Of a stretch of 49,416 nucleotides of DNA, positions 5,918 through 49,376 are shown piece after piece. The notes below the pieces were generated by a model. That model saw nothing but the letters and a program-made list of their open reading frames with translations, was not told the DNA's origin and searched no databases. Source of the DNA: Deltaproteobacteria bacterium (GTDB lineage Bacteria > JAEEML01); contig JAEEML010000004.1 in NCBI GenBank assembly GCA_016283195.1, forward strand, positions 1 to 49,416, written 5' to 3'. Position numbers and translations under genes: made by a program. Every line of letters starts with the position of its first letter. Position 1 is the first letter of the stretch.

Positions 5918-5949
5918 AGCTGCCAATTACTAACTTGTTGGAGTTACCA

Positions 5950-10818: not shown

Positions 10819-11008
10819 TTCTTTTGCTCCTTTTAAAAGCTGCACCGTGCAGCATATCGGCCCATAAGAGTGGCGCATAAGGCGGGATAAGTCAACCGGA
10901 ATAGCCGTTTTTTGCGTTTTTAAAGTAAAAAAGAGTTTCAGCGCATTATAGAGTTTGGACTAAGCTGCCGATATGCTATAGAATATGTGGTTTTTTTGGG
11001 AGCCTGAC

Positions 11009-14000: not shown

Positions 14001-17000
14001 AGGGGCGTCTTGATGAAGCTCTTAACCACTATGAGCGCAAGCTGGCTCTTTTGGAGAAAGCCAAAAGTAATCGCCATGTGGCCGAAGCGGTCGATGACGA
14101 GCTCATTTATACCTATAATCAGCTTGGTGTTTTGCGCATTTTGCTAGGTGAACTCAAAGTCGGTGAGGAATTTTTCCTCAAGGCTTTTACCCTTGCCGAG
14201 CAGGAAGAATATCTCAATTTCGGCGGCAAACTGGCCGCAGCTAATAATCTCCTTAGTTTACTGCGCTACGGCCTGCCGCTATCTGCCGAACTGGAAAAAT
14301 CGCTTAACGAATTTTGGGAGAAATATCACGATAATTGCCGCCGGGAACTTCGAAAGCCTTGCAATAAATTTTTAATAAGTATGGCTAGTTATGAGCTCTC
14401 TAAGGTGGGCGGCCGGGATAGCGGAGAAATTAACGGCGGCGCTAAGATTATTGAGAAATTTATGCAAGATACCGCGCTTATTAGCCGGGCCTATAAAAGG
14501 GCCAAAGAGGTTAACGCCATAATTAATGATGCTGCTACCGAGGGCGCCGCTGTAGCGGATTACGGCGATTACAGTGCGGCCGCCGATAATATCAAAGCTC
14601 ATGGAGAGGCGCTTTCCGGCAATTTGGAAGAAGCCAGAAAAATTAGCTTAAAGAGTATTAAAACAGCTTCGGCAGCTATGAAATGGCGCCTTATTTGGGA
14701 CCGCTATTTCTGGGATACCGAAGAGCGGGCAGCACTTACTAAAGAGCTTCTTGATGAATTGCTTAAAGGCGGCCAGGCCATGGGTAGAGCCAACCTCTGG
14801 AGCCATGATTTCCGCGAAGCTCTTTCCGCTATCTTTAGTACTCTTGGTGATGAAGATGGCAAAAAACTCTTGGAACTTGCTAACTTATGGCGTTCTCTGC
14901 AATTAAAAACCACTCCTTGGGGAGGCAGCGCCGCCATAGCCGGTAAAGCGTTTAATGCGGCCGAACTGCTCCTAAAACTTAACGGCAGTGCTTATATTTT
15001 GGAGCAAAATTTGCTTGGTAAAGAGCTTTTGCTTATTGCTTACGGCGAAAATATTTTCAAATTTTATGGCGAAAAAAAGGCCGCCGAGGATTGGCTTAAC
15101 GAAAAACTTACCGCTTATGAGGGGCAGGTTTTTTATTTGGATACTTTGAGCCAAGACGGCGAAAAAACGCTGAAAAATGCTCTTATGAAGCGCGAAAATA
15201 TTTTTACTCTTTTAGCCATTAGTCCGGCGCATCTTTATAAAGCTTTAACGGCGCAAACTTTTTCTACCAGAGGACCGCTTTATATCGGAGGCGAGACAAT
15301 TAACGGCCTAAAGGGGCTAAATACTCTGGCTGGCGTGAAGGACTTAAAAGAGCAAAAAGATCAAATATTTTCGCGTGAATATGTGATTGTTGATATACCT
15401 CTTACCGTCTCTTTGGACGGCCAACCGCTTTATATTGGTGCAGATGGTAAATTAAGTGCCTATCGCCCGGCCGCCTTGCGCACACCGCTCATAATTTTTA
15501 ACCGTTTATATAAACTCGATGACCTTTGCAATACCGTGAAAAACGGCACCTATTTGGCCGGAAATATCTGCCTGCCTTTGGCGCCGGATTTTGTAAAAGC
15601 GGTTAATGAGCGGCTTGGCGCTGATGCCGATCGCCTGGCCGAAGCGCGCCTAGTGGCTGCCTCTATGGAGCAAGGAGCGGCATTGGTAGCGGTGACCAAA
15701 GAGCAAAGTTTGCCGCGCCTGGCCGGTGAGCTCGATGCCGTCACCGATGATTTAAAGAAAGAATCGCCGGGAAAAATATTAACAGAGAAAATAAATGATA
15801 AAATTAAATTAAATATTTATGGAGCTATAGGTCTTGATGGCGCCGCCGGAAAGAAGTTGGCCGAGAGCGAGTACAAAAAAGCGGCCGGCGAGGGTAGTAA
15901 ATATTATAAAAATAAAATTTGGGCTGCTGCCACCGAGCCCTTTATCGAAGCTACCGCCGCTTTGGATTATCAGGGAAAATCATCAGCCAGTGTGCGCAAC
16001 TTGCTCTCTCAGGTTTATGGCAACCTGGGCGAAGTGGATAAGGCTATTGCCGAGCAACAGAGTGTGCTTGATGAATATATCAGAGAGAAGAAGTCGGCTA
16101 ATATTGCCACCTCCATGCGCATTTTAGGCAAACTTTATCGCGATAAAGATAACATTGTAGCCGCCGAACTGTTTGAAAAAGCGGCAAAAGAGTTTAATAA
16201 ATTAAATAAAAAAGCCGATGAAGGTGATTCTTATATTTTGGCCGGTAAAGCCTATAGTGCCGTTGGAGCTTACGATAAAGCGCTTAACGCTCACCGGCGG
16301 GCTCTGGCGATTTTTATAAAACTGGATAATAATCGCCAGTACGAAGCCAATCGCTATATAGGCATAATTTATGAAAATAATTACAGTAATTATCGCAGCG
16401 CCATGAATTCTTATAATGCTATTTACAGCGCCGCTTTGAAAAAGGGCGACGAAAAAGAGGTGCGCACCGTTTTGGTGGATTTGACGCGTGTGGCCCGCAG
16501 CCAGGGTAATTACCAAAAAGCTCTGGAACTGGCCGGCCGGGCTTTAGCCAGCTTGCCGGAAAACGAAGAAAAGGCCAAAGCGGAAATTCTTTTGGAAATG
16601 GCTAAAATTTATTGGTATCGCGGCGAATATCGCCAGGCGCTTTTAACCGATGGTGAGGTGCTTGATATAGCGCAAAAGTTAGGTAATATTTTCCTTGAGA
16701 TTCAAGCAGTTTCCCTAAAGGGACTCATTGCCCGCAATCAAGGTGATTTAGATAATGCGGCTATCTTTTTGGAGCAGGCGCTCAATATGGCCGAGCGCAC
16801 CGGCCGCCAAGGCGAGGTGGCCAATCAGCTCAATAATCTGGGGATTGTTTACCGCGAACAAGGCAATATCAAGGAGGCTATAGAGACTTTTAATCACGCC
16901 TTGGCACTTGATGAAAAAATGAATAATAAAGAAGGCATAGCTTTTGATAAGCGTAATCTTGGCGTAGCGCAAACCGAGGCCGGTGATTTAAAAAATGCCG

Positions 17001-18580
17001 AAGAGAACCTTTTGGCTTCTTTAAAAGTCAGCCAAAGAATTAGTAGTAAATTCAACGAACTTGAGTGCAGATACGCTCTCGGCCAGCTCTATGAAAAGCA
17101 AGGTGATAATAAAAGTGCCAGAGAGTATTACCAAAGTGCCAGTACCTTGGGGCAAAAGATTTCTGTGGCCGATGTAGAATGGCGCGCCCTCTATGCTCAG
17201 GCATTGCTTGATATTGGGGCCCAAAAAACAGCTGCCGCGCGGGAAGAACTATTGCAAGCGGTGACAATAGTGGAAGGTATTGGGCGTAGCGGCGGCAAAG
17301 AGCGCACTCCGACGCGCGAAGAGCTCTATGGTACTTTGGTGGCTCTCTTGCTGGAAGAGGGGGAAGCTGCCCTGGGCCTGGAATTTTTTGAGCGCTATAA
17401 AGAGCGCAGTTATCTTGATTTTGTCAGCGGGCGCGATATCGGTTTGCAAAAAGAGGAAGGTTATGCAATTTGGGAAGAAATAGAAGGGCTTTCCGCCGGT
17501 GACCAGAATAGCGATACTAATCCTGCGGAAATCGCTACCCGCAAAAATGAGCTGAAAAACGAACTACTGGCTAAAAATTATCGCCTGGCGGCCAATCTTT
17601 TTGTCGATGGCTCCTCACTGGATTTAGGAGCTCTCACCTGGCCGGAAAAGAGCGCCTTCTTGGCTGCCTTTTTAACGCCCCAGGGCGTAGCTCTCTGGTG
17701 GTGGGATAAAAGCGGCGGCCTTACGGCGCGTCTCATTAAAACCGATATGAAAAAATTCCGTACCACTATTAATAATATACCGAAATTACTAAATAATTTT
17801 GTGCCAATGGAAGAAGAGCTCACGCAAATAAGCGAAATTATTCTGGCTCCCTTTGCCGCCAAATTGCCGGAAGTAAAATCTTTGGCCTTTGTGCTTGAGG
17901 GGCCGCTGGCCGCTCTGCCGGTGGCCGCTCTTAGTTATAAGGGCAAAAGCCTTTTAAAACGTGATATTGCTACTTGGCTGGTGCCTTCTCTTAAGCTGGC
18001 GGTGAAGGAAAGCGCGGCTTTGGCGGTGCCAAGTGTTCTTTTGCTGGCCGGAAGCGGCCCGGAGGTTACACCCTATGCTAAGCTTGAGATTAAAGCCATA
18101 GCGGCAGAGCACAAAAAACTAAGTGAGCAGCTAAACGGCTTTGAGCCCAAAAGGCAGGGCATAGCGCGCGGCAATGTTCTCCATTTGGCCGGCCACACTG
18201 TGGTTGACAGCCAGGACCCTCTGGCCACCATTATTCGCATAGATGATAAAAATAGCCTTACATTACAGGAGCTTTTACAAAATGGCCATTTGCCGCCGCT
18301 TTTGGTGCTGAGCTCCTGCGCTACCGCTGCAGGCGGTGAGGGGCCCTGGCTAAATATTCGCAAAGCCTTTTTACTGGCCGGCAGCAAAACTGTAGTGGCC
18401 AGCAATTCGCGTGTTTCTGATTTAAGTACTGGACTTTTAATGAAATATTTTTATCGCCACTGGCTAAAGGATGGTGAGCCGATGCTTTTAGCCTGGCATG
18501 AAGCCCAAAAACAGGTAGCGGAAAAATATCGCCACCCGGCCCACTGGGCCTCTTTTAACCTCGCCGGCCGGCCGGAATAA
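11009..18580 (+). CDS. Giant lipoprotein: TolB/PD40 beta-propeller, TPR arrays, C-terminal CHAT (caspase-like) domain
   Basis: GGGAG RBS before ATG 11009; lipobox LAGC; P.FSPDG repeats; TPR repeats (e.g. QLNNLGIVYREQG); CHAT motifs LHLAGH, LVLSSC, AFLLAG..VVAS, HPAHWASF. Confidence 0.85.
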   Translation: MGKRSTFLIILVFSICLAGCGPKEFMGLKASDLFPELSNAPGTFREPVTVLSTPANELSAVVSPLGDSLLYVSDEQGNTNIYLSPIRGNGYTQLTTQSADDLEPAFSPDGALIAYVSMEEDSKGDIWLMKANGKRKKRLTFRETADRTPIFSPDGRYIYYVGRRGVKDIATIYRVPVKGGKSEDLGPGFDPAPLYDGQYLIHTVFDENHHPRLAVRNLQHGDKKSTYLTKGDYLEGFPRVFSGQKYHHLVFSRFCDDTNGDGLVDGDDRPSLWRLDITITDSGLKYGEPFPLTTGQTAEIFGFISGNVLFFTATDNDHEIKALPIDGVISREVNDETIYALALASHKPVVRRTLLRYLVSRGGVPAGRARYELAKELSENEEYDMALKVLRAAIDSAHDEPDFEKVLILEEYRITVFKEEKELSGGKVHSYLKDRLENLPNIHQESPEDSLAVAARYATIKAELSYKVGERSNLVKNLENLLAKKDVPLEDVARARRVLSNLALSLGRLDEVKNLEFNVLRLNAQLDYHKNKAVNVLLNNMPAAETPADYLQNLADGASDIPLLATSARLKLADYYKERTFMALAAAEYEKILTAYPAEKAEAVTALRELAKMAEDSGDRAAALDYWERIVSDYSTEWQEVKEARSSISRLALLNAKAEENKGNIKAALENYRRMIKADENSIIAHRHLIALSAKLGTINETIASYRAEVAKNPDKAAYVYGLGLALTWQIPLKIDEAEKYVKKAKALDPRLAEAYLTLGWIEEQRYNKDPFGDHLEKAVDHYMTALNEGALSETVADAKQNIGNAFFLMGKDDLAFSNYLSRELDPEPFSGIESELIFRERFGRVALRKEYFDVALTELNDAERLSRDINYPRRGELLMLLGFSAYAQENYDKAAKWYQKAAETFTAAARYDKALTARRAEGYALELAGKYQEAEEVLGESLAMLARYGGAPSHKYALLEFEMSLESNNVTRAPYGFDAAGEEELLRHRLATIFGREGRLDEALNHYERKLALLEKAKSNRHVAEAVDDELIYTYNQLGVLRILLGELKVGEEFFLKAFTLAEQEEYLNFGGKLAAANNLLSLLRYGLPLSAELEKSLNEFWEKYHDNCRRELRKPCNKFLISMASYELSKVGGRDSGEINGGAKIIEKFMQDTALISRAYKRAKEVNAIINDAATEGAAVADYGDYSAAADNIKAHGEALSGNLEEARKISLKSIKTASAAMKWRLIWDRYFWDTEERAALTKELLDELLKGGQAMGRANLWSHDFREALSAIFSTLGDEDGKKLLELANLWRSLQLKTTPWGGSAAIAGKAFNAAELLLKLNGSAYILEQNLLGKELLLIAYGENIFKFYGEKKAAEDWLNEKLTAYEGQVFYLDTLSQDGEKTLKNALMKRENIFTLLAISPAHLYKALTAQTFSTRGPLYIGGETINGLKGLNTLAGVKDLKEQKDQIFSREYVIVDIPLTVSLDGQPLYIGADGKLSAYRPAALRTPLIIFNRLYKLDDLCNTVKNGTYLAGNICLPLAPDFVKAVNERLGADADRLAEARLVAASMEQGAALVAVTKEQSLPRLAGELDAVTDDLKKESPGKILTEKINDKIKLNIYGAIGLDGAAGKKLAESEYKKAAGEGSKYYKNKIWAAATEPFIEATAALDYQGKSSASVRNLLSQVYGNLGEVDKAIAEQQSVLDEYIREKKSANIATSMRILGKLYRDKDNIVAAELFEKAAKEFNKLNKKADEGDSYILAGKAYSAVGAYDKALNAHRRALAIFIKLDNNRQYEANRYIGIIYENNYSNYRSAMNSYNAIYSAALKKGDEKEVRTVLVDLTRVARSQGNYQKALELAGRALASLPENEEKAKAEILLEMAKIYWYRGEYRQALLTDGEVLDIAQKLGNIFLEIQAVSLKGLIARNQGDLDNAAIFLEQALNMAERTGRQGEVANQLNNLGIVYREQGNIKEAIETFNHALALDEKMNNKEGIAFDKRNLGVAQTEAGDLKNAEENLLASLKVSQRISSKFNELECRYALGQLYEKQGDNKSAREYYQSASTLGQKISVADVEWRALYAQALLDIGAQKTAAAREELLQAVTIVEGIGRSGGKERTPTREELYGTLVALLLEEGEAALGLEFFERYKERSYLDFVSGRDIGLQKEEGYAIWEEIEGLSAGDQNSDTNPAEIATRKNELKNELLAKNYRLAANLFVDGSSLDLGALTWPEKSAFLAAFLTPQGVALWWWDKSGGLTARLIKTDMKKFRTTINNIPKLLNNFVPMEEELTQISEIILAPFAAKLPEVKSLAFVLEGPLAALPVAALSYKGKSLLKRDIATWLVPSLKLAVKESAALAVPSVLLLAGSGPEVTPYAKLEIKAIAAEHKKLSEQLNGFEPKRQGIARGNVLHLAGHTVVDSQDPLATIIRIDDKNSLTLQELLQNGHLPPLLVLSSCATAAGGEGPWLNIRKAFLLAGSKTVVASNSRVSDLSTGLLMKYFYRHWLKDGEPMLLAWHEAQKQVAEKYRHPAHWASFNLAGRPE

Positions 18581-35609: not shown

Positions 35610-36596
35610 TTATGGGCACACGGAAAGTATGCCGGTGGAGTTGATACATAAAGGCCCGCTGGTGCCGCTTGCGGGTAAACTTTCGGGAGCTATACGCACA
35701 TTCAGCAGGTAATCAACTTCTTTTGAACCTTCTGGTTGCCCTTCATCAGTATCAATTTGCATGGAACCCAGACGTTTTATATCCGGTATATAAGTGCCAT
35801 TGGCGTTTTGCAGTACACTGACCTGTAGAAGAGAGCTACCAGCAATTTTAACATAAACTTTTATAATTTTTTTATTATCTTCGTAGCTTCCTTTAACATA
35901 AAAGCGTGTTTTATAATATTTTTCTCTAAATTTTCGGCCATCCAGCTGGGTAAAACGGGCTATAACATGATCACTGGAGAAATTATTAATATCTTGAGGA
36001 ACTTGATATTCTCCGCCTTGAACAAACAGAGTGCCCATTCTATTTTTGCCCTCATTATCGCGGTAAGTTATAAGCAATAAAAAACCGGCATAAGCAGGAT
36101 TAGGATCATTTCCGGGCTTGACTGTAAGTGTTCCTAGTTCATACCAGCCTGAATCCGTAATGACTTGCCTGGACAAGCTATCCGCCGTACCAGCTTTGCC
36201 GGCGCTATCGGCACTTTGGGCATGACCAGCTTCGGCGGCCTGGATGGCAAAAGGCACGGAGGAAACGGCAATGCGCGGAGTCATTTCGTCATCGTCACCA
36301 ACTTTGATGCCCAGTTCGATTTTGTCGGCGGCGACAATTTTATTTTTGTCGACACCGTCTATTGTGAAGTTGTAAAAGCCGTTTTCCACGGTAATATTTT
36401 TAGTAACCGCTTTAATAACTTCGCTGTTACCATCATAAAGAGTGGCCACAATTTTAACCTGTCCGTTCATTAATTCGCCATCTTCCCAGAGCAGGCCGTG
36501 GTGGGTAAAGCTCATGGGGACGGCGGCCATGGCCGATGAAGCTGCCAGCAGAAAGCCAAGAGTGGTAAGTGTCGTTAATAATTTTTTGCTCTTCAT
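35610..36596 (-). CDS. Secreted fibre/adhesin-like protein A (conserved N-domain, variable tip)
   Basis: AAGGAG RBS; signal peptide ending AMA; the first ~125 aa are clearly paralogous to 44901..46298 (AAVP.SFTHHGLLW...ENGFYN...ELGIKVGD..EMTPRIA.SSVPFA); C-terminus unrelated to that paralogue. Confidence 0.75.
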   Translation of the reverse strand: MKSKKLLTTLTTLGFLLAASSAMAAVPMSFTHHGLLWEDGELMNGQVKIVATLYDGNSEVIKAVTKNITVENGFYNFTIDGVDKNKIVAADKIELGIKVGDDDEMTPRIAVSSVPFAIQAAEAGHAQSADSAGKAGTADSLSRQVITDSGWYELGTLTVKPGNDPNPAYAGFLLLITYRDNEGKNRMGTLFVQGGEYQVPQDINNFSSDHVIARFTQLDGRKFREKYYKTRFYVKGSYEDNKKIIKVYVKIAGSSLLQVSVLQNANGTYIPDIKRLGSMQIDTDEGQPEGSKEVDYLLNVRIAPESLPASGTSGPLCINSTGILSVCP

Positions 36597-36614: not shown

Positions 36615-37277
36615 CTACTTCCAAGAGCCATCGTTTACCTTAACTTCATGGGTGGAATCTTGAGCGCTGCCAGCCATGGAACCGCCTAAAACCTGCACTT
36701 TATAACGGTTGCTGCTGGCTTTGCCGGCAATATTGGTTAGAGTTGCTCCAGCCGGTAATTTTATTGGTGTTTCAGTAACAATTTCAGTGTTTTCCCGGCA
36801 AATATTCCCTTCACAGACTAGACCTTCGGCGCATTTATTTTGCTCATCGCAAGCTTCGCCTTTACCTCGCGGGTTGCTTGCTTTTAGGACACACTTCTTG
36901 TTTTGGCAGGTATAGTTGTCTTGGCAATCAGTATCGTTTTTGCAAGGTTTTTGGCAAATGCCGTCCAGGCATTCAAGGCCGCTTTCGCAGAGTATTTTAA
37001 GATCGCAGCTTTCGCCGTTTTTGCTCCTTGGTGTGGTATTTTTTACGCAGCGCTCATCTAGGCAGGAGGAATCATTAGGACAATCGCTGTTATCTTGGCA
37101 AACTTTTCGGCAAATGCCGTTTTCGCATAATAGGCCGGGCATACAGTCATGCTCGGCATCGCACTGGTCACCCAGTTGCCCGGTATTGCTTGGAGGCACA
37201 GGCTTATCCGGGCAACCAGTAAGCATGGTTAGAGCAACAATGGAGGGAGCAAGAATCAGGCGGGGGAAGAGTTTCAT
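36615..37277 (-). CDS. Cys-rich lipoprotein A, partner of fibre A
   Basis: GAGG RBS before ATG 37277; lipobox LTGC; CxxxxxCxxGLxCxxGxC repeats; C-terminal LPAG..LTN..GKAS..RYKVQ.LGGS.AG...NDG.WK shared with 44226..44882. Confidence 0.8.
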   Translation of the reverse strand: MKLFPRLILAPSIVALTMLTGCPDKPVPPSNTGQLGDQCDAEHDCMPGLLCENGICRKVCQDNSDCPNDSSCLDERCVKNTTPRSKNGESCDLKILCESGLECLDGICQKPCKNDTDCQDNYTCQNKKCVLKASNPRGKGEACDEQNKCAEGLVCEGNICRENTEIVTETPIKLPAGATLTNIAGKASSNRYKVQVLGGSMAGSAQDSTHEVKVNDGSWK

Positions 37278-37411
37278 TCTGCACCTCAAACTTGGTAAGG
37301 CGAACCGATTTTCGCGCTTAGGTCTTTTCAAGACCTAATATACAGGCTAGCCTGTAAAATTTGAAAAAATTTGCGCAATGTCTTCGGAGGAAACTCTGTG
37401 AAGATGGCGGG

Positions 37412-41684: not shown

Positions 41685-42647
41685 ATGGCACAGGATTATT
41701 ATAAAACACTTGGCGTGGAAAAAAATGCCAGCGCCGATGAGATTAAAAAAGCCTATAGAAAACTGGCAATGAAATACCACCCCGACCGCGTGCCGGAGGC
41801 TAAAAAAGCCGAAGCGGAAGCCAAATTTAAGGAAATCAGCGAGGCTTATGCCGTGCTCTCCGATGATAAAAAGCGCCAGCAATATGATACCTTCGGCTCC
41901 GATAACTTTAGCCAGCACTTTAGCCAGCAGGATATCTTTAACAATGCTGATTTCAGCTTCTTGGGTGACCTTTTTGGCGGCGGCGGCAGTGATATTTTTA
42001 GCCGCCTTTTCGGCGGTATGGGCGGCTCCGGCCGGCGGGTAAATATCAATTTTGGTGGCGGAGGCGGCGATATATTCAGCTCCTTTAGTGGCGGCGGTTT
42101 TGGCTCTTCGGGGCGGGGAAACGCCGCCGGCTTTGGTCAGGAAGGGCGCAGTCAAAACAGTGCCACTACCGCCACTTTGGCTATCTCTTTTGAAGAGGCC
42201 GCTTTAGGCGCCGAAAAGTCTCTCACCATAAAAGATACGGCCGGCGGGCAAAGAACCATCAAAGTAAAAATCCCAGCCGGTATCGAAAGCGGGCAAAAGC
42301 TCAGAGTAAAAGGCAGCGGCGGGCGGCCGGATATGTATTTGGAAATAAATGTGCAAAAAAGCCCGATTTTTACCCGCGAGGGCAATAATGTCCATGTGCA
42401 AGTTAGAGCCTCTATTTGGGATCTTATCCTTGGCGGCGGAGTGGAAGTGCCGCTCATTGGCGCTCCGGGGCGGCGTATCAAGATAAAAGCCGGTACTCAG
42501 CCGGGTACGGTAATGCGCCTCGCCGGGCTGGGGATTGCGCCCAAGAGCGCGAGCCCCGGCGATTTGCTCGTGACTATAGAGGCGGCTATCCCGCCGCTTA
42601 GTGCGGAGCAAACGGAACTTTGTAAGAAGATAAGGGATAATAATTAA
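41685..42647 (+). CDS. DnaJ-class chaperone lacking the zinc finger (CbpA/class B J-protein)
   Basis: J domain with HPD, G/F-rich region, C-terminal substrate-binding domains, no CxxCxGxG repeats. Confidence 0.92.
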
Positions 42648-43288
42648 ATTTTTTCAAGCAGATCCTCCATGTCGCAGCCTAACGCCAGGGAAAGTTTATA
42701 AATCGTCTGCGCCTGAGCTTTGTCGATGTCGTTTACTCTCTGCTCATAAAGCTGGATGGAGTGCAGCCCCACTCCCGATGCAGCCGATAGTTCCGACTGG
42801 GAAAAGCCCCTGTTTGGGCGGATATTTTTCAAATTCGTGCTGATAGAGCGCTCCGCAATTTTTTTATCCATCGCCTCGATAAAAGCGGTTATGTCCATTT
42901 CGTGATAGACGCTATACATTTTTATTATCTCGGAAAGCGGAACTTTGCCGAAAATTGCCTTAAAACTCTTTGCCGCCTGCCACTGATACTGCGCCAAAGC
43001 CTAGCCTGCCCAGTATTCAGGCGATCGGTTTGGCGAGAACACAGCTTCCGGAAGCTTACGGCCCGGATCGACCTTTTCAACAATGGAGCGAACAAGTTCA
43101 ATTCCCGATTTTCCGGCGATAACCGAAGGGTTTCCACGGCCGAATTTGTCGCTTATGCCGGACACAATAAAGAGCTCGGCAAATTCATCTGGTTTGAAGC
43201 CGCAGCTATTTAGCGCATAATCAAAAGCGATTGCCAGCGAGCTTTCTGCACTACCCAAATAAAGTTCACTGTATGCGCGGATCGCCAT
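42644..43288 (-). pseudogene. XRE-family HTH regulator (DUF3990-associated) with an internal nonsense codon
   Basis: ORFs 43001..43288 and 42644..42997 share a frame, separated by TAG at 43001-43003 (EYWAG*ALAQYQW, probably TGG>TAG); C-terminal HTH SQSELSAASGV...IQLYEQ. Confidence 0.75.
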
Positions 43289-43934
43289 TTTTCATGCCCT
43301 CCCGGATAATATCCATCACAAAAATACTTTTAGCTACTACTAAATGACGAAGTTCATTTTTATAAGCCGCGCGCGCCTTGGCATACGCGCCGTGTATTTC
43401 TGGTAGTAAGTTTCGCACCTTACTGTTTCAGTACCGGCAAAAGTTAGCTGGCCGAAGGCTTTATCCGAAACGAGGGCATACTGAATGCCGAGTTTTCCCA
43501 GGCGCATCGCTTTTTCCAGGCTTGCCAGCGGCAGAGTGTTGTTGATGAAGTCTCTGGCAAAAGAAAAATAGGAGTCGTCTGCGCGGTAGCCAACGATTAC
43601 ATCAAAAGGAGCGGTATCAATAGCGAAGTTGTTTACAAGATATTCCTTGGCCGCCGCCGCAATTGCGTTTTCCAGCGAAAAATTCTGTTTTGCAGCAAGA
43701 TGGCTAGCCAATTCAGAACATTGTAACATTTGTCCTGCATATCGAGCACTTTAAGCCCGCTTTTTCTTAAACTGTATTTATTGACGAAACCATTGCTGTT
43801 TTCTCTGGAGGCCCACTCTTTGGCAACTTCGATCTCCTTGGTGCAGTAGAATCCCTGCCCGTAGTCGTTGTGTTTTTTCCCGGCTGCAAGAGTTGGTTTC
43901 TCAATGATTTTCGTTGAACCATGGATAAAATCAT
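43266..43934 (-). pseudogene. DUF3990-family protein with three apparent 1-bp deletions
   Basis: Reconstructs as MIL[Y]HGSTKIIEKP...DYGQGFYCT...NRIF/SLEN...GYRADDSYFSFA...R[D]AKARAAY...DIIREGMKNGDPRIQ; frame breaks near 43924, 43680 and 43384. Confidence 0.75.
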
Positions 43935-43949
43935 AATGCGGCTCCAATT

Positions 43950-43997
43950 TTGTATCACCATAATGATACAATTTTTTGTATCATTGTGGTGATATTT
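43950..43997. promoter_or_regulatory. Double palindromic operator upstream of the DUF3990/XRE module
   Basis: TTGTATCA-N6-TGATACAA (43950-43971) and TTGTATCA-N6-TGATATTT (43976-43997), together forming a 19-bp inverted repeat with one mismatch. Confidence 0.7.
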
Positions 43998-44125: not shown

Positions 44126-44152
44126 TTGACTCAAAAAAAAAAAAAATAGACT
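44126..44152 (+). promoter_or_regulatory. Putative sigma70 promoter with an A14 tract in the spacer
   Basis: TTGACT (44126-44131), C + A14 (44132-44146), TAGACT (44147-44152), about 75 nt upstream of ATG 44226. Confidence 0.6.
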
Positions 44153-44225
44153 AATTTATGTTAGATTGTATCAAAACGTCTAACACTGGCATATTTAAGC
44201 CTTTAAACAGGCCGAGGAGGGCAAG

Positions 44226-44882
44226 ATGAGGCGGACAATCTTAGTAATGGGTGTCTTACTCTTACCGTTTTTGTTGAGCAGCTGTTCCGATAAACCGGAA
44301 CAGAATGTGCCGCGTACAAGAGGAGTTAGCGAAGCATGTGACGACACCAAAAATCTCTGTGTGGCCGGGCTATATTGCGACAACGGCAAATGCCGCGAAA
44401 TGTGCAACGAAAATGTTCCCTGCGGCAGTAATGAAAAATGCGTTGATAATCGCTGTTTGCCTTGGAGCAATCCTGGTAGCAACACCGATGAGCCGGGCAG
44501 TAACACTGATAATCCCGGTAGTAACACCGATGAGCCGGGCAGCAATACCGATCTTCCAGGCACGCAATCACTGGGCGATAATTGCGATGCGCAAAATAAA
44601 TGTGCTTCCGGCCTCTCCTGCCTTGGCGGCACTTGTCACCAAAACTGCCAAGATAGCGCAGAATGCCAAACAGGCGAAGAGTGTAGAAACAGTATGTGCC
44701 AATTGCCACAAATAGCCGGGGAAACAAACAAAGTAGCTCTGCCGGCCGGCGGCGGGCTCACTAATATGTCGGGAAAAGCCAGTGATGGCCGTTACAAAGT
44801 GCAAATTTTAGGCGGCTCCATTGCCGGTAGGTCTAAAGACAATAACAAATCAGTGCAACTTAACGATGGCGCCTGGAAATAG
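44226..44882 (+). CDS. Cys-rich lipoprotein B, partner of fibre B
   Basis: GAGGAGG RBS; lipobox LSSC; Cys modules; C-terminal domain paralogous to 36615..37277. Confidence 0.82.
   Translation: MRRTILVMGVLLLPFLLSSCSDKPEQNVPRTRGVSEACDDTKNLCVAGLYCDNGKCREMCNENVPCGSNEKCVDNRCLPWSNPGSNTDEPGSNTDNPGSNTDEPGSNTDLPGTQSLGDNCDAQNKCASGLSCLGGTCHQNCQDSAECQTGEECRNSMCQLPQIAGETNKVALPAGGGLTNMSGKASDGRYKVQILGGSIAGRSKDNNKSVQLNDGAWK
44469..44561 (+). repeat. 21-bp tandem repeat (42-bp higher-order unit) encoding (N/E)PGSNTD x4
   Basis: NPGSNTD EPGSNTD NPGSNTD EPGSNTD LPG. Confidence 0.9.
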
Positions 44883-44900: not shown

Positions 44901-46298
44901 ATGAAAAAGAGTGTATTAACAGGTCTCACAGCTCTAGGGCTCTTGCTTGGAAGTAGTACCTTGGCCAGTGCCGCCGTGCCACTTTCCTTTACTCATCACG
45001 GCCTGCTTTGGGACGGCGATGAGCTGATGAATGGCCAGGTAAATATTACCGCCACCATTTACAAGAGCAAGAGTGCTTCTGCCGTGGCTATTAAGGAAGT
45101 TACCAAACAGGTTACTGTGGAAAATGGATTTTATAACCTCACCATAGACGATATTGATCCGGAAGCCATTATTGCCGCCGATGGCAAAATGGAGCTCGGC
45201 ATTAAAGTTGGTGATGGTAATGAAATGACGCCGCGCATAGCTATCTCCTCAGTGCCGTTTGCTATTTTGGCTGCTCATGCCGATAGTGCAAGTACAGCCA
45301 CTACAGCCGAGACAGCCGGGGGGTTAATTTGTGACCGTTGTGTTGGTGAAGAATTACTTTCTGCCGAACTCGCACAACAATTGGCTAATAGTGGTAATAC
45401 CAGTGGTGACTTAGTGGTTGCTAATAATTCCATTACTACTGAGATGATTCAAAATGGTGCTGTCACCAAGGACAAAGTAAACTTCAATTATGCCGGCTCC
45501 AGCAGCAAAGGTGGTTCGGCTACCAGCGCTGTTAAATTAGATACTGCTACCGCTGGTACTGCGGCAAAGCCTGTTTATTTTACAGGTGGTAAACCGGAAG
45601 TTGTCACCAGCATTGATAGCAGCTTAATCTCTGGTATTAAGCCAGCGAATTTGGATAAAACAGCAATGCTTGACTACCTCTATCCTGTTGGTTCTATTTA
45701 TATTTCTGTCTCTTCTAACAATCCGAGCACCCATCTTGGTGGAACGTGGGAACAAATAAAGGATAGATTTATGCTGGCTGCCGGTACAACATACGCTGCT
45801 GGAAGTACTGGTGGCAGTGCTACTGTCAGTCATACTCATACCGTAACTGGTACTAATTCCGCAGTAACACTCACTTCAAGTCATATTCCTCAGCATACTC
45901 ATACTTTTTCAGGAACTGCCGCTACTATAACCGTAACCGGTGGTAGCCATTCACATACTATATTTGCAAACACTAATGGCAGTCCTGACGGACAGGGTGA
46001 TCATAATGCCAGTACCGGTCCGAATCGCTACTGGAATGGAGCTAAGGTACAAAACCAAAATGGTAGTGTATATTCAAATCCTTATAGTGGTAGTAATACT
46101 TCTAACACCAAACCTCTAACAGATGTTTCAGGTTCTTTGTCTCTGTCAGGTTCTTATACTCCCAAAGGAACACTTTCCTCTTACGGTTCCGCTTCACCAA
46201 GTTCTCATACCCACACTTTTTCAGGCACTGCAGCTTCAACAAGTGTTAGCAATATGCCGCCGTACCTCGTCGTTTATGTCTGGAAACGCACCAAGTAA
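44901..46298 (+). CDS. Secreted fibre/adhesin-like protein B with a phage tail-collar/baseplate-type C-terminal domain
   Basis: Signal peptide ending ASA; N-domain shared with fibre A; C-terminal YPVGSIYIS....P....GGTWEQIKDRF.LAAG...GSTGG...NMPPYLVVYVWKRT with four HxH motifs. Confidence 0.82.
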   Translation: MKKSVLTGLTALGLLLGSSTLASAAVPLSFTHHGLLWDGDELMNGQVNITATIYKSKSASAVAIKEVTKQVTVENGFYNLTIDDIDPEAIIAADGKMELGIKVGDGNEMTPRIAISSVPFAILAAHADSASTATTAETAGGLICDRCVGEELLSAELAQQLANSGNTSGDLVVANNSITTEMIQNGAVTKDKVNFNYAGSSSKGGSATSAVKLDTATAGTAAKPVYFTGGKPEVVTSIDSSLISGIKPANLDKTAMLDYLYPVGSIYISVSSNNPSTHLGGTWEQIKDRFMLAAGTTYAAGSTGGSATVSHTHTVTGTNSAVTLTSSHIPQHTHTFSGTAATITVTGGSHSHTIFANTNGSPDGQGDHNASTGPNRYWNGAKVQNQNGSVYSNPYSGSNTSNTKPLTDVSGSLSLSGSYTPKGTLSSYGSASPSSHTHTFSGTAASTSVSNMPPYLVVYVWKRTK

Positions 46299-46642: not shown

Positions 46643-46764
46643 TTAAAACCACACAAAATGCGTTAAAGACTCATAATTACAACTGGTTATATGCTTTTTG
46701 AAGTTTGGCACGCAATTTGCATTCAGATTGGCCGGCCAGACTATCTGGCAAAAAGGAGCTATTT

Positions 46765-47865
46765 ATGCGCATTCGAGTTACTAATGATGTCATCTTTCGT
46801 GCCCTCTTTGGCAACCCGGCCCACAAAGAGGTTCTCCTGGCCCTTATCAATGCTGTTTTTGACGACAGCGGCTCGGAACTCATTAAAAGTATCGAGATTA
46901 TCTCGCCTTATAACCTGCCGGAGGTCTATAGCGACAAAGAGAGCATTTGCGATATCAAAGCCATAAGTGAAAGCGGAAAGATTATCGACATCGAAATGCA
47001 GGTTTTGCGAAGGGCCGATTATATCGACCGCTCCCTTTATTACTGCGCCCATAATTTAAGCTCGCAGCTTAAAAGAAGCGAATCTTATAGCGAACTGCAC
47101 CAGGTAATCTGCATCAGCATTTTGGATTTTGACCTCTTCCCCGACGATGAAGAGCCGCACCACACCGCCCAGATGGTGGACCGCATAACCGGCGAGCCCC
47201 TAAGTGAAAAGATGACTATTCACTTTCTGGAGCTCCAAAAAGCGGAAAAATATGCTAATATTACGGCCGAACTTGCCGCCTGGGTGCGCTTTTTTGCTCA
47301 TGCGCACGAGGAGGATTACATGGAGAGCGCGGTTTCGGCCATCGGTGAGGCCCATAGCTTTTACCTTGAACTACTGAACAACACCAAGCTGGTGGGAATT
47401 GCTGCCGATCGTGAACGGGCCTATCGTGACTGGATATCGCTGATTAAGAATAAGGAAAAGGATGATAAGAGAATAGCCGAAGCTAAGCAGGAAATTGCCA
47501 AAGATAAGCGGGAAATAGCCAAAGATAAGCAGGAAATAGCTGAAGCCAAGAAAGAAATAACTGAAGCCAAGGAAGAAATAGCTGAAGCTAAGGAAGAAAT
47601 AGCCGAAGCTAAGGAAGAAATAGCCGAAGCCGAGCAGAAAATAGCCAAGGATAAGCAGGAGATAGCCAAGGACAAGAAAGAACTGGACTTAATTCGTATT
47701 CAGCTTGGGCAGGGACAAGCTGAATTGAAAAATCAAAAACAGCTTGTTTACGATCAAGGAAAACATGAGAAAGCCGTGACTCTGGCCAAAAAATTCATGG
47801 CTCTAGGCCACAGTAAAGAAGAAGCCGCGAAATTTGCGGAAATTGATGTGAAATTGCTTGATTAG
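46765..47865 (+). CDS. Rpn family recombination-promoting nuclease / PD-(D/E)xK putative transposase
   Basis: AAGGAG RBS before ATG 46765; NDVIF..LFG, K.SICDI.A, IDIEMQ, RSLYY, ISILDF, IHFLEL.K; C-terminal coiled coil and helical tail. Confidence 0.9.
   Translation: MRIRVTNDVIFRALFGNPAHKEVLLALINAVFDDSGSELIKSIEIISPYNLPEVYSDKESICDIKAISESGKIIDIEMQVLRRADYIDRSLYYCAHNLSSQLKRSESYSELHQVICISILDFDLFPDDEEPHHTAQMVDRITGEPLSEKMTIHFLELQKAEKYANITAELAAWVRFFAHAHEEDYMESAVSAIGEAHSFYLELLNNTKLVGIAADRERAYRDWISLIKNKEKDDKRIAEAKQEIAKDKREIAKDKQEIAEAKKEITEAKEEIAEAKEEIAEAKEEIAEAEQKIAKDKQEIAKDKKELDLIRIQLGQGQAELKNQKQLVYDQGKHEKAVTLAKKFMALGHSKEEAAKFAEIDVKLLD
47470..47679 (+). repeat. Ten 21-bp tandem repeats encoding heptads EIA(EA/KD)K(E/Q)
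   Basis: RIAEAKQ EIAKDKR EIAKDKQ EIAEAKK EITEAKE EIAEAKE EIAEAKE EIAEAEQ KIAKDKQ EIAKDKK. Confidence 0.9.
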
Positions 47866-48095: not shown

Positions 48096-48470
48096 ATGCT
48101 AAGTCAGTATATGAAAGAGTTGCGGGAAGAGATTCTAAAAGAGTATGAATTAGGAGTTTATGGTTACCGGTTGCTAGCGAAGCGGTACGGACTAAAGCGA
48201 GATACCGTCAGGGATTGGGTTAGAGCAGCTCGCAAAAAAGGAAACACAGTGGGAAAGCCAAAAGCAAAACTTAACAGGGAAAAGCCTAAAGATATAAAGC
48301 AAATGACTCGTGAAGAGCTTGAAGAAGAGCTTGATCTATCCAGGCATGCTGCTGACTTTTGGGAGTTTTACGCCAAGGAGCTACTTGAACAAATAAAAGA
48401 AGAAAGTAAAAAAAAGTGCAATTGGAACTCTCGACAAATACTGTCAACAAAAGAAAGTAAGCGTCAATAA
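48096..48470 (+). CDS. IS3 transposase OrfA (HTH)
   Basis: GYRLLAKRYGLKRDTVRDWV helix-turn-helix, leucine-zipper-like region, A8G run at 48408-48416. Confidence 0.8.
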   Translation: MLSQYMKELREEILKEYELGVYGYRLLAKRYGLKRDTVRDWVRAARKKGNTVGKPKAKLNREKPKDIKQMTREELEEELDLSRHAADFWEFYAKELLEQIKEESKKKCNWNSRQILSTKESKRQ

Positions 48471-49376
48471 GATGTGTAAGGCTGTTAAAATTCCTCGTTC
48501 ATCTTTTTATTACAACCGGATGTCGACAGCGCATCGGGAAGCCAAGGATAAAGAAGTTCTGGAAGCAGTAATGCAACTTAATCCGTTGGAAATAAAAAAG
48601 GCTGGAGCGAAGCATAAAGCGCAAATTTTGAAGAAACAAGGCAAAGTAGTGAATCATAAGCGGCTAGCCAGAATTTGCAAAGAAGCCTAGAAACCACAAA
48701 CAGGCGACGCAAGTTTCCTAAAAACTATTATCAAATCTTAAAAGAAAACGAGAAAAATCTACCTAAAAACGAATTGAATCGTGATTTTAAGGCTTCTGAA
48801 CCGCTAAAGAAATTATGTACCGATGTTTCATATTTCAAAGTTAAAGAAGGTTGGCTTTATCTGAGTCCGATTTTGGATTTGCATGATCAATCGATAGCGG
48901 TTTATAAAATATCGCCTAATATAGACAGTAAACTCGCATGCGATACGCTCTCAGAGTTAGTTACCAAATACAAATTGCAGGATGCCATGATTCATTCTGA
49001 CCAAGGTGCGATTTACAAAGACAAAACTTACCGCAAATTCTTTAAAAACGCTGAAACAACAAGCGCTTCAGAAAGTAATAATTACGTGCCGACAGATAAG
49101 AAACTACCGGATAAAAATGATAAAAAGTATCAAAAAGCTTTAAAGCAAGCCAAGAAGTGCAATCTCATACAGAGTATGAGCCGCAAGGGTAACTGCTGGG
49201 ATAATGCCTGTATAGAACGATTCTTCGGAAGTATAAAATCGGAAACCGACTACTATGAAACACTTAAAAATGGATTACTTACTTATAAGGAAATGGAAAA
49301 AGTAATTACCGATTACATCGAATATTATAATAAGTTACGAATTCAGAAAAAGCTCAACTGGTTGTCCCCCTGTTGA
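48415..49376 (+). pseudogene. IS3 transposase OrfB (DDE integrase core), frameshifted near 48685
   Basis: MC..VKIPRSSFYY, VNHKR..RI, then a frame change; N.LNRDF....P...LCTDVSY, HSDQG, QSMSRKGNCWDNACIERFF, YIEYYN..R. Confidence 0.82.

What the first reader, a model, noticed from the sequence alone, without database searches (positions are those of the whole stretch)
45330..46298. Phage tail-fibre/collar module grafted onto a Sec-exported protein, with no prophage around it
Seen: after the conserved N-domain, fibre B carries NYAGSSSKGGSATSAVKLD...AG....PVYF.GGKP, then YPVGSIYIS...GGTWEQ...NMPPYLVVYVWKRT with four HxH motifs (SHTH, QHTH, SHSH, SHTH). By eye the DNA here shifts to T/A-ending codons and loses the GCC/GGC style of the flanking genes. 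Established: HxH motifs coordinate metal in T4 gp12/gp37-type needles, and the YPVGSIY...PPY..VY.WKR domain occurs in phage collar/baseplate proteins. Inference: a phage receptor-binding tip was captured fairly recently for cellular use.
Basis: partly seen in the sequence, partly recalled or inferred. Interest (0 to 1): 0.7.

Follow-up and report, generated by a model that had tools for sequence, protein, structure and literature searches.

The report
Phage-tipped secreted adhesive fibre family
This gene encodes one of about nineteen exported fibre proteins in an uncultured gut bacterium that share one base domain and carry swappable tips, here a tip of the kind phages use on their tails, so it is probably a cell-surface adhesin like the fibres the predator Bdellovibrio uses to grip other bacteria.

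Summary
ORF 44901-46298 (465 aa) has a Sec-type signal peptide, a conserved ~120-aa N-domain, and then a shaft and tip with phage relatives. The tip matches Pfam Gp10_C (5.7e-19). It has four HxH motifs, a count reached by 69 of 100,000 shuffles. GC3 drops from 0.46 in the N-domain to 0.29 in the tip, which is the lowest 1% of the genome. No phage structural genes lie nearby.

The gene is not a one-off graft. It is one of 19 paralogs sharing the N-domain, and all seven Gp10_C domains in the genome appear to sit on such fibres. The N-domain is a distant relative of the Bdellovibrio MAT (mosaic adhesive trimer) N-domain. Direct matches stay under the NCBIfam cut-off, but 86 of 113 profile relatives match that model.

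No close phage donor was found. Whole-tip identity is at most about 40%, so "recent capture" is unproven.

Two new details emerged:
- Nine fibre genes follow a dedicated Cys-rich lipoprotein gene. Predicted binding has weak support (0.42 against 0.00 for controls).
- Four cassettes share a promoter-like element with a poly(A) spacer of 14-15 bases, which may make expression phase-variable.

This scan has noted MAT-like fibres before on other DNA.

The parts
44126..44152 (+). Promoter-like element TTGACT-C-A14-TAGACT, with the A14 tract at 44133-44146. It is a candidate phase-variable promoter of the cassette.
   Evidence: The same element lies upstream of 4 lipoprotein+fibre cassettes, with A14, A14, A15 and A11TA4. 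Three of the genome's five A/T runs of 12 or more bases are these. Function was not tested.
44159..44185 (+). Conserved hairpin in the 5' leader (UGUUAGA...UCUAACA).
   Evidence: RNAalifold on 4 cassette leaders, two of them identical: 10 pairs, of which two keep pairing through a change on both sides. The evidence is thin.
44226..44882 (+). Cys-rich lipoprotein gene (218 aa, lipobox LLSSC, 17 Cys, PGSNTD repeats, conserved C-terminal ~60-aa module), 19 nt upstream of the fibre gene.
   Evidence: The C-terminal module occurs 10 times in the genome, 9 of them directly upstream of a fibre gene. Pfam gives only weak EB and DUF7107 matches.
44901..46298 (+). Fibre B gene, 465 aa plus stop codon.
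   Evidence: ORF list. It is one of 19 N-domain paralogs in the genome.
44901..44972 (+). Signal peptide, residues 1-24 (MKK, hydrophobic core, ASA|AVP).
   Evidence: Read from the sequence. All 19 paralogs have a similar leader ending just before the conserved VP(L/M)SFTHHG. No predictor was run.
44973..45329 (+). Conserved N-domain, residues 25-143: a beta-sandwich followed by a helix.
   Evidence: Alignment A1 of 19 paralogs. AF2 model with mean pLDDT 84.5, strands to about residue 115, helix at 119-140. No specific PDB fold match. Sub-threshold matches to NF053851 Bdello_MAT_N.
45330..45650 (+). Junction and shaft, residues 144-250. It starts with C144-x-x-C147 (the protein's only two Cys) and includes the YAGSSSKGGSA...PVYFTGGKP motif.
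   Evidence: The CxxC is conserved in most paralogs. The segment recurs in other paralogs in other combinations and in viral contigs (L126, L161, L134).
45651..46295 (+). Tip, residues 251-465: a Gp10_C-type domain with a long HxH-rich insert.
   Evidence: Pfam PF21939 5.7e-19. PDB profile hits: cyanophage A-1(L) long tail fibre 8kec 2.9e-8, 7z47 2.2e-7, T4 gp10 2fkk 4.6e-7. In the AF2 monomer model the core is confident and the insert is not.
45831..45839 (+). HxH motif 1 (H311-T-H313).
45894..45902 (+). HxH motif 2 (H332-T-H334), at least 90% conserved among 63 tip relatives.
45948..45956 (+). HxH motif 3 (H350-S-H352).
46206..46214 (+). HxH motif 4 (H436-T-H438).
35610..36596 (-). Fibre A, a second family member in the window (328 aa). 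Its N-domain is 65% identical to fibre B's; its tip is unrelated.
36615..37331 (-). Cys-rich lipoprotein gene paired with fibre A, 19 nt upstream of it.

Best explanation
Fibre B is a member of a lineage-specific expansion of MAT-like (mosaic adhesive trimer-like) surface fibres.

Proposed mechanism:
- The protein is exported by Sec and its signal peptide is removed.
- The conserved N-terminal beta-sandwich plus helix holds the fibre at the cell envelope. In this subgroup it probably does so through the Cys-rich lipoprotein encoded 19 nt upstream.
- The helix, the CxxC junction and the phage-like shaft bring three chains together.
- The C-terminal Gp10_C-type tip, stiffened by HxH motifs that probably bind metal on the three-fold axis, binds a surface glycan or glycopolymer on another cell or particle.

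The genome keeps about 19 such genes with one constant end and exchangeable shafts and tips. This gives a repertoire of binding specificities.

Shown here: the architecture, the paralog family, the phage affinity of the tip, the composition break, and the absence of a prophage. Inferred: trimer formation, surface display, metal binding, the ligand class, and the role of the lipoprotein.
For: Family:
- 19 N-domain matches in the genome by tblastn and by profile. Each follows a signal peptide.
- The C-terminal parts differ. 6 of the 14 paralogs not cut by a contig end carry Gp10_C; the other 8 have no significant Pfam tip domain.
- Shaft segments recur in different combinations among paralogs.

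Link to MAT:
- Caulton et al. [quoted passage not shown]
- NF053851 Bdello_MAT_N matches 12 of the 19 paralogs at E <= 0.1, with 12.5-24.9 bits.
- A profile of the 19 N-domains finds 20,712 representatives at E <= 1e-3.
- Of 113 of the top 150 hits scanned, 86 match NF053851 at E <= 1e-3, best 53 bits.
- The tips of those 113 include Peptidase_S74 (6), collagen (5), fibrinogen/COLFI (5), Gp10_C (2), Collar (1) and lectin-type domains. This is the same mosaic logic.
- The N-domain model is a confident beta-sandwich plus helix (pLDDT 84.5) with no specific PDB relative. The paper says the same of the MAT N-domain.

Tip:
- Gp10_C 5.7e-19.
- Solved relatives are phage tail-fibre and baseplate proteins.
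- Annotated phage relatives are tail proteins, and 'antireceptor' in Lactobacillus delbrueckii phages. In phage LL-H, host-range mutations map to the C-terminal part of the antireceptor (PMC3870949, passages).

Mosaic history:
- The C82 and C3 cassettes are 97-100% identical in DNA over the promoter region and the lipoprotein 5' end, about 92% through the lipoprotein gene, 63-77% in the N-domain, and 50% or less beyond it.

Lipoprotein:
- 9 of its 10 C-terminal modules in the genome lie directly upstream of fibre genes.
- Complex prediction gave weak support: score 0.42, best control 0.00. The mark was reached by 116 of 157 solved complexes and 2 of 215 mismatched pairs. At 0.60 or under it was reached by only 18 of the 157, and by both mismatches that passed. 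Runs agree in at least 62% of contacts; partner pLDDT is at least 47.
Against: - No paralog reaches the 60-bit NCBIfam cut-off, and a whole-genome search with NF053851 found nothing. Its control rang nowhere either.
- I never compared the N-domain with real Bdellovibrio sequences.
- Trimer formation was not modelled. The monomer model of the tip is poor (pLDDT 61.8), and Foldseek gave no match at E <= 1e-3.
- The fibres here are short (304-760 aa among the 14 not cut by a contig end) against about 1000 aa typical of HD100 MATs (Discussion).
- None of the 19 carries Peptidase_S74.
- How a Sec-exported fibre would cross the outer membrane is unknown.
- The lipoprotein C-terminal module was not found in 5 of 5 other genomes that hold N-domain relatives. 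Ten fibre genes lack it.
- The organism's lifestyle is unknown.
- No expression data were obtained.
Confidence: 0.72

Rival explanations
1. Recent one-off capture: a phage receptor-binding tip moved into this cellular gene not long ago, and the rest of the family is incidental.
For: - GC3 of the shaft and tip (0.30) lies in the lowest 1% of the genome, while the N-domain is normal.
- The most similar own-genome tip (C164, about 40% identical) has an ordinary GC3 of 0.53. Low GC3 is therefore not a property of the tip family.
- The cassette lies beside transposase genes.
- Relatives of the shaft and tip occur in viral contigs.
Against: - No close donor was found: at most about 44% identity over the tip among 5.8 billion proteins, 24-35% in phage records, and 31-38% over the whole tip in IMG/VR.
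- Fibre B sits alone on a long branch in an unresolved tree.
- 14 of 17 paralogs show the same drop in GC3 after the N-domain, whatever their tip.
- All 7 Gp10_C domains in the genome are on fibre-type ORFs. Six have the N-domain; the seventh is cut at a contig start.
Confidence: 0.2
2. Remnant of a degraded prophage, tailocin or contractile injection system, whose tail-fibre gene survives alone.
For: Tail-fibre-type tip. IS and transposase genes lie downstream. There is a weak Foldseek row for a Photorhabdus eCIS tail fibre, E = 3.8.
Against: - A signal peptide does not fit assembly of a phage-type particle in the cytoplasm.
- The N-domain is shared by 18 other chromosomal genes.
- None of the 17 neighbouring ORFs matches a phage structural family.
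- The N-domain motif was not found in viral contigs, though only one peptide pattern was searched.
Confidence: 0.04
3. A secreted, not surface-held, binding protein, for example a soluble lectin-like agglutinin or the targeting part of a bacteriocin-like system.
For: There is no recognisable anchor (no lipobox, no sorting tag) in the fibre itself. Ten fibre genes have no lipoprotein partner.
Against: - The conserved N-domain across all paralogs argues for a common attachment or assembly function.
- There is no toxin or enzyme domain.
- The adjacency to the lipoprotein gene and the weak predicted interaction point to retention at the cell.
Confidence: 0.08

Closest known systems
MAT (mosaic adhesive trimer) fibres of Bdellovibrio bacteriovorus, non-S74 subgroup (e.g. 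Bd2439, Bd2740); Caulton et al. 2024, PMC10769870
   Same: A signal peptide, then a conserved beta-rich N-domain of about 120-130 aa with no PDB relative, then a variable fibre and tip. There are about 20 paralogs per genome, tips are swapped between paralogs, and the parts are phage-like.
   Different: - The N-domain scores only 12.5-24.9 bits against NF053851, whose cut-off is 60.
- The fibres are much shorter (304-760 aa among the 14 not cut by a contig end).
- None has an S74 domain.
- A Gp10_C tip is not among the tips listed in Supplementary Tables S1 and S3.
- Half of the genes follow a dedicated lipoprotein gene.
- The host is an unplaced gut bacterium, not a known predator.
Pfam PF21939 Gp10_C (C-terminal domain of T4 baseplate protein gp10, PDB 2FKK) and the cyanophage A-1(L) long tail fibre (PDB 8KEC)
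   Same: Conserved YP(V/I)G(S/T)IY...G.W start and PY..VY.W.R end. 8KEC also has a run of HxH motifs in the aligned insert.
   Different: The insert here is longer: 209 residues are matched to a 139-position profile. T4 gp10 itself has no HxH in the aligned stretch. Here the domain sits on a secreted cellular protein.
Antireceptor (tail-fibre adsorption protein) of Lactobacillus delbrueckii phages such as PMBT4, Ld3, Ld17; Gp71 of LL-H (PMC3870949)
   Same: The tip aligns to the annotated antireceptor genes: 31.5% identity over 68% of the query for PMBT4. In LL-H the C-terminal part sets adsorption specificity, and the receptor is lipoteichoic acid.
   Different: Identity is low. I did not check that the aligned part is the specificity-determining region, and LL-H itself was not among the listed hits.
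HxH metal sites of the T4 gp37 needle tip (PDB 2XGF) and gp12. That the motifs bind metal is recalled, not taken from a call.
   Same: Repeated HxH in a Ser/Thr/Gly-rich fibre segment.
   Different: There is no significant sequence or fold match to 2XGF: Foldseek E = 5.6 on a poor model. Metal binding is untested.
Phase-variable promoters with a homopolymer in the -35/-10 spacer (Mycoplasma hyorhinis vlp poly(A); Neisseria opc and porA). Recalled, not read here.
   Same: TTGACT, then C plus a run of A, then TAGACT upstream of surface-protein cassettes. Spacer lengths are 15, 15, 16 and 17 nt in the four copies.
   Different: No tract-length variation within a population was seen. The contigs laid were cut at the tract. 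Promoter activity is untested.

Membership tests
MAT superfamily (Caulton et al. 2024) | Conserved beta-rich N-domain of ~130 aa immediately after the signal peptide. | tested here: met
   All 19 paralogs share the architecture. AF2 gives a beta-sandwich plus helix, pLDDT 84.5.
MAT superfamily (Caulton et al. 2024) | Sequence homology of the N-domain to Bdellovibrio MAT N-domains (NCBIfam NF053851, cut-off 60 bits). | tested here: inconclusive
   Fibre B scores 20.6 bits. 12 of 19 paralogs match at E <= 0.1, all under the cut-off. The link is indirect: 86 of 113 profile relatives match NF053851 at E <= 1e-3, best 53 bits. A genome-wide search with the model found nothing, and its control also rang nowhere.
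MAT superfamily (Caulton et al. 2024) | Many paralogs with one conserved end and diversified, exchangeable tips. | tested here: met
   19 paralogs. Gp10_C tips on 6; the others are different. Shaft segments are shuffled between paralogs. An identity gradient runs along two cassettes.
MAT superfamily (Caulton et al. 2024) | Intertwined trimeric fibre. | not tested
   Only monomer models were made.
MAT superfamily (Caulton et al. 2024) | Surface exposure on the cell. | not testable with these tools
   Needs microscopy or surface proteomics.
Pfam PF21939 Gp10_C | Score at or above the gathering cut-off (27 bits) over the whole profile. | tested here: met
   69.9 bits, profile positions 1-139 of 139, residues 256-464.
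T4 gp37/gp12-type metal-binding needle | HxH motifs that coordinate metal ions on the three-fold axis. | tested here: inconclusive
   Four HxH motifs are present and one is conserved. There is no significant match to 2XGF. Metal coordination cannot be tested here.
Prophage or tailocin tail module | Neighbouring phage structural genes (tube, sheath, baseplate, tape measure, capsid). | tested here: not met
   None of the 17 neighbouring ORFs matches a structural PHROG. Pfam shows housekeeping genes, an HTH protein, DUF3990 and transposases.

The most novel reading that the evidence does not exclude
In this lineage, the surface element that holds MAT-type fibres on the cell (still unidentified in Bdellovibrio) is a dedicated Cys-rich outer-membrane lipoprotein encoded just upstream. 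Each lipoprotein+fibre cassette would be switched on and off through a slippery poly(A) tract in its promoter spacer. The cell would then display a changing subset of phage-derived binding tips, drawn by recombination from an AT-richer (phage) gene pool.
Probability: 0.22. Interest if true: 0.72.

Novelty: new variant of a known kind. Interest (0 to 1): 0.5.

Why it matters
MAT fibres were described in 2024 as the way Bdellovibrio recognises many kinds of prey. How they are held on the cell is still open.

This genome shows the same design in a distant, uncultured gut bacterium, with three differences:
- short fibres;
- a phage baseplate/tail-fibre tip type not listed in the paper's supplementary tables;
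- a candidate anchoring partner that could be tested directly.

If the tips bind surface polymers of other gut bacteria, the family would mark cell-to-cell attachment (predation, epibiosis or co-aggregation) in an organism about which nothing is known. It would also give a set of natural, modular binding domains.

The steep fall in identity and in GC3 along the gene is a clear record of module exchange between phages and cellular adhesins.

Tried and rejected
- **Genome-contig scan, N-domain.** 28 pattern matches, none confirmed.
- **Viral-contig scan, N-domain.** A1 gave 2 pattern matches, none confirmed. Both scans rest on a single peptide pattern, so they show little.
- **Word-based protein search, residues 1-150.** It found only 4 proteins, which by their contig lengths are this genome's own paralogs. 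The full HMM search was needed to find relatives.
- **NF053851 over the whole genome.** No match, and its control rang nowhere.
- **Foldseek.** For the tip, the best rows were the KP1 baseplate cup and T4 gp10 at E = 5e-3 to 1e-2, none at 1e-3 or better, on a model with pLDDT 61.8. For the N-domain there were only generic Ig-like sandwiches.
- **Tip tree.** 63 rows, 224 columns: 34 of 59 inner branches open, fibre B in no supported clade, and the own-genome tips neither joined nor separated with support.
- **Taxonomy.**
  - All 40 'relatives' offered are labelled 'same domain'.
  - The best foreign RuvB match is 81% (one metagenome protein); the rest are 67% or less. Named hits are Myxococcota and 'Deltaproteobacteria', and Myxococcota and Bacteroidales.
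  - Earlier notes calling the genome Fibrobacter or Treponema could not be confirmed, although the genome holds 114 Fib_succ_major matches.
- **Expression and tract variation.** No RNA holder was listed. The laid runs were short, low-depth contigs cut at the poly(A) tract, with no insertions or deletions reported.
- **Protein Atlas on the N-domain.** Only unnamed clusters.
- **Lipoprotein C-terminal module in other genomes.** 0 of 5 genomes that have N-domain relatives, and none in their 8 loci.
- **sigma-70 scan.** It did not list the cassette promoter, because the scan requires a 16-18 nt spacer and this one is 15 nt.
Full report
**1. What is there**

The finding's coordinates (45330-46298) are residues 144-465 of a 465-aa ORF at 44901-46298 on the + strand.

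- The protein begins MKKSVLTGLTALGLLLGSSTLASA|AVP. By eye this is a Sec signal peptide with an A-x-A site. No predictor was available.
- HxH motifs lie at residues 311, 332, 350 and 436. Four or more occur in only 69 of 100,000 shuffles of the 215-residue tip.
- The tip matches Pfam PF21939 (Gp10_C, the C-terminal domain of T4 baseplate protein gp10) at 5.7e-19, 69.9 bits against a cut-off of 27, over the whole profile.
- It also matches PHROG tail-protein families down to 1.6e-17.
- By single-sequence search the only solved relatives are T4 gp10 entries, E = 5e-4.
- A profile of 63 tip relatives also reaches the cyanophage A-1(L) long tail fibre 8KEC (2.9e-8, aligned through a run of HxH motifs), 7Z47 (2.2e-7) and T4 gp10 (4.6e-7).
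- In that alignment H332 and H334 are at least 90% conserved.

**2. Composition**

- GC3 is 0.46 in residues 1-143, 0.34 in 144-250 and 0.288 in 251-465. The 37 ORFs of the window average 0.48 with sd 0.06.
- With the genome's codon usage (1052 ORFs of at least 350 codons) and the tip's own amino acids, the expected GC3 is 0.54, z = -7.8. The N-domain is unremarkable, z = -1.4.
- Only 22 of 2371 length-matched windows from long ORFs are as low as the tip.

**3. Surroundings**

- The window carries ordinary chromosomal genes, including ruvB, lon, folP-like, queC, tilS, a dnaJ-type gene, glgC-type and bamD-type genes.
- Upstream of the cassette lie an HTH gene and a DUF3990 gene that reads as two overlapping ORFs.
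- Downstream lie a PD-(D/E)XK transposase-family gene and an IS3-type element at the contig end.
- None of the 17 neighbouring ORFs matches a phage structural family.
- "No prophage around it" therefore holds for the window.

**4. It is a family, not a single graft**

- The first 150 residues have 19 matches in the 3.22-Mb, 190-contig genome, both by tblastn and by profile. One of them is "fibre A" in this window (35610-36596, minus strand).
- Each has a signal peptide followed directly by VP(L/M)SFTHHG and a ~120-residue conserved domain. In most, a CxxC follows.
- Five copies are cut by contig ends.
- The C-terminal parts differ. Six carry Gp10_C. The other eight that are not cut by a contig end have no significant Pfam tip domain.
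- The genome holds seven Gp10_C domains in all. The seventh is on a frame that runs off a contig start. As far as can be seen, none belongs to a prophage.
- BLASTP among the C-terminal parts shows shaft segments shared in different combinations.
- Comparing the fibre B cassette with its closest paralog on contig C3, DNA identity is:
  - 97-100% over the upstream region and the start of the preceding gene;
  - about 92% through that gene;
  - 63-77% in the N-domain;
  - 50% or less beyond it.
- In 14 of 17 paralogs long enough to test, GC3 is lower after the N-domain than within it.

**5. What the N-domain is**

- Pfam has no model for it: none of the 19 paralogs and none of 113 relatives has a significant match there.
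- NCBIfam NF053851, [quoted passage not shown], matches 12 of 19 paralogs. The scores are 12.5-24.9 bits, far under its 60-bit cut-off. A whole-genome search with the model found nothing.
- A profile of the 19 N-domains, searched against 1.84 billion representatives, finds 20,712 proteins at E <= 1e-3, 1,589 at E <= 1e-10 and 22 at E <= 1e-30.
- I scanned 113 of the best 150. The rest were left out, mostly for the size limit. 86 match NF053851 at E <= 1e-3, best 53 bits; none reaches the cut-off.
- Their C-terminal domains include Peptidase_S74 (6), collagen (5), fibrinogen/COLFI (5), Gp10_C (2), phage Collar (1), F5/8 type C (2), K1-lyase_C (2), CBM60, Lcl_C and Fib_succ_major.
- The AF2 model of the N-domain is confident (pLDDT 84.5): a beta-sandwich followed by a helix. 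It has no specific PDB relative.
- All this fits the description of MAT fibres by Caulton et al. [quoted passage not shown] I read passages, the Discussion, and Supplementary Tables S1, S3 and S4.
- A gp10-type tip is not among the tips those tables list.
- I did not compare directly with Bdellovibrio sequences. I file this as a distant, MAT-like variant, not a proven member.

**6. Was the tip captured recently?**

- Evidence for foreign origin is the composition break. In addition, the most similar own-genome tip (C164, about 40% identical) has a normal GC3 of 0.53.
- Against recency, no close relative exists in any collection searched:
  - Full-length hits in 5.8 billion proteins are only the genome's own paralogs. 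Foreign hits cover the tip alone, at roughly 33-44% identity over 44-60% of the query.
  - Phage records give 24-35% identity over about 65% of the query, annotated as tail protein, tail fibre or antireceptor.
  - IMG/VR gives 119 relatives, with whole-tip identities of 31-38% and higher values only on short segments.
- Some viral contigs also match the shaft, so the whole of residues ~150-465 is phage-like.
- The tip tree is unresolved.
- My reading: there is a long-standing exchange of modules with an AT-richer pool, probably phages. The date of this particular tip is open.

**7. The neighbour gene**

- Nineteen bases upstream lies a 218-aa Cys-rich lipoprotein gene, 44226-44882.
- Eight fibre loci have such a gene 19-32 nt upstream on the same strand. 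A ninth is cut by a contig start.
- An HMM of the conserved C-terminal ~60 residues hits 10 places in the genome. Nine of them lie directly upstream of a fibre gene.
- Complex prediction on the N-domain (66-row alignment) and that module (9 rows) gave weak support.
  - The score was 0.42 and the best control 0.00.
  - The mark was reached by 116 of 157 solved complexes and 2 of 215 mismatched pairs.
  - At 0.60 or under it was reached by only 18 of the 157, and by both mismatches that passed.
  - The runs agree in at least 62% of contacts, and the partner's pLDDT is at least 47.
- The module was not found in 5 of 5 other genomes that have N-domain relatives.
- The pairing is therefore real in this genome. 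Binding is a hypothesis.

**8. The upstream element**

- Four cassettes share CTTTTTAGTTGACTC-A(n)-TAGAC with A14, A14, A15 and A11TA4.
- This gives spacers of 15, 15, 16 and 17 nt between a TTGACT and a TAGAC(T/C) hexamer.
- The genome has only five A/T runs of 12 or more bases. Three are these. The other two sit in the same kind of element upstream of other signal-peptide genes.
- A conserved hairpin follows in the leader (only four sequences, two of them identical).
- This looks like the slipped-strand promoter switches known from other bacteria (recalled, not read here). No length variation could be observed.

**9. Verdict**

The best explanation is a MAT-like secreted adhesive fibre with a phage Gp10_C-type tip, belonging to a 19-member mosaic family (confidence about 0.7). 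The organism is unplaced.

MAT-like fibres are known in print and have been noted repeatedly by this scan on other DNA. I therefore rate this a new variant of a known kind, of moderate interest. The lipoprotein partner and the poly(A) promoter are the parts most worth testing.

Noticed in passing
window 44126-44152; also G000 C3:45849, C22:1283 (minus strand), C122:3161, C99:~561, C169:~7419, C128:14671: Promoter-like elements made of TTGAC(T/A), a run of 13-15 A (interrupted in C122 and C128) and TAG(A/G)A lie upstream of genes for signal-peptide proteins. All five A/T runs of 12 or more bases in the 3.2-Mb genome are of this kind. This is possibly a genome-wide set of phase-variable surface-protein promoters.
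   Followed up: partly
whole genome G000: There are 114 matches to the Fib_succ_major (FISUMP) domain, PF09603. This is a very large expansion for a 3.2-Mb genome, yet RuvB is at most 67% identical to any named organism's, and the nearest are Myxococcota. Earlier notes of this scan call the genome Fibrobacter, Treponema or 'gut bacterium'. The placement is unresolved.
   Followed up: partly
window 43340-43971 (minus strand): The DUF3990 family is split over two overlapping ORFs: 43633-43971 matches profile positions 5-91 and 43340-43729 matches positions 90-152. This suggests a frameshifted gene. It lies next to a small HTH gene (42644-42997).
   Followed up: no
window 46705-47865 and 48096-49376: A PD-(D/E)XK transposase-family (PDDEXK_2) gene with a long KEIAEAK-type repeat tail, and an IS3-type element (HTH plus rve) of low GC at the contig end. 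The fibre cassette lies in a mobile-element-rich edge of the contig.
   Followed up: no
window 10985-18580: A 2531-aa protein with PD40 repeats, many TPR repeats and a C-terminal CHAT domain (caspase-like protease).
   Followed up: no
window 5935-8421 and 36615-37331, 44226-44882: DUF7107 and EB-type Cys-rich modules recur in an 828-aa protein as well as in the fibre-linked lipoproteins. tblastn with the lipoproteins finds many further Cys-rich relatives across the genome.
   Followed up: partly
G000 C68:39572-40905: One cassette holds a lipoprotein gene followed by two fibre genes in tandem, with a 12-nt gap between the fibre genes. The second fibre gene is cut by the contig end.
   Followed up: no
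fibre B residues 144-147 (window 45330-45341) and the same column in paralogs and distant relatives: A CxxC pair at the N-domain/shaft junction is conserved in most paralogs and in distant relatives such as P0141, P0147 and P0262. In a trimer it could form inter-chain disulfides or a metal site.
   Followed up: no
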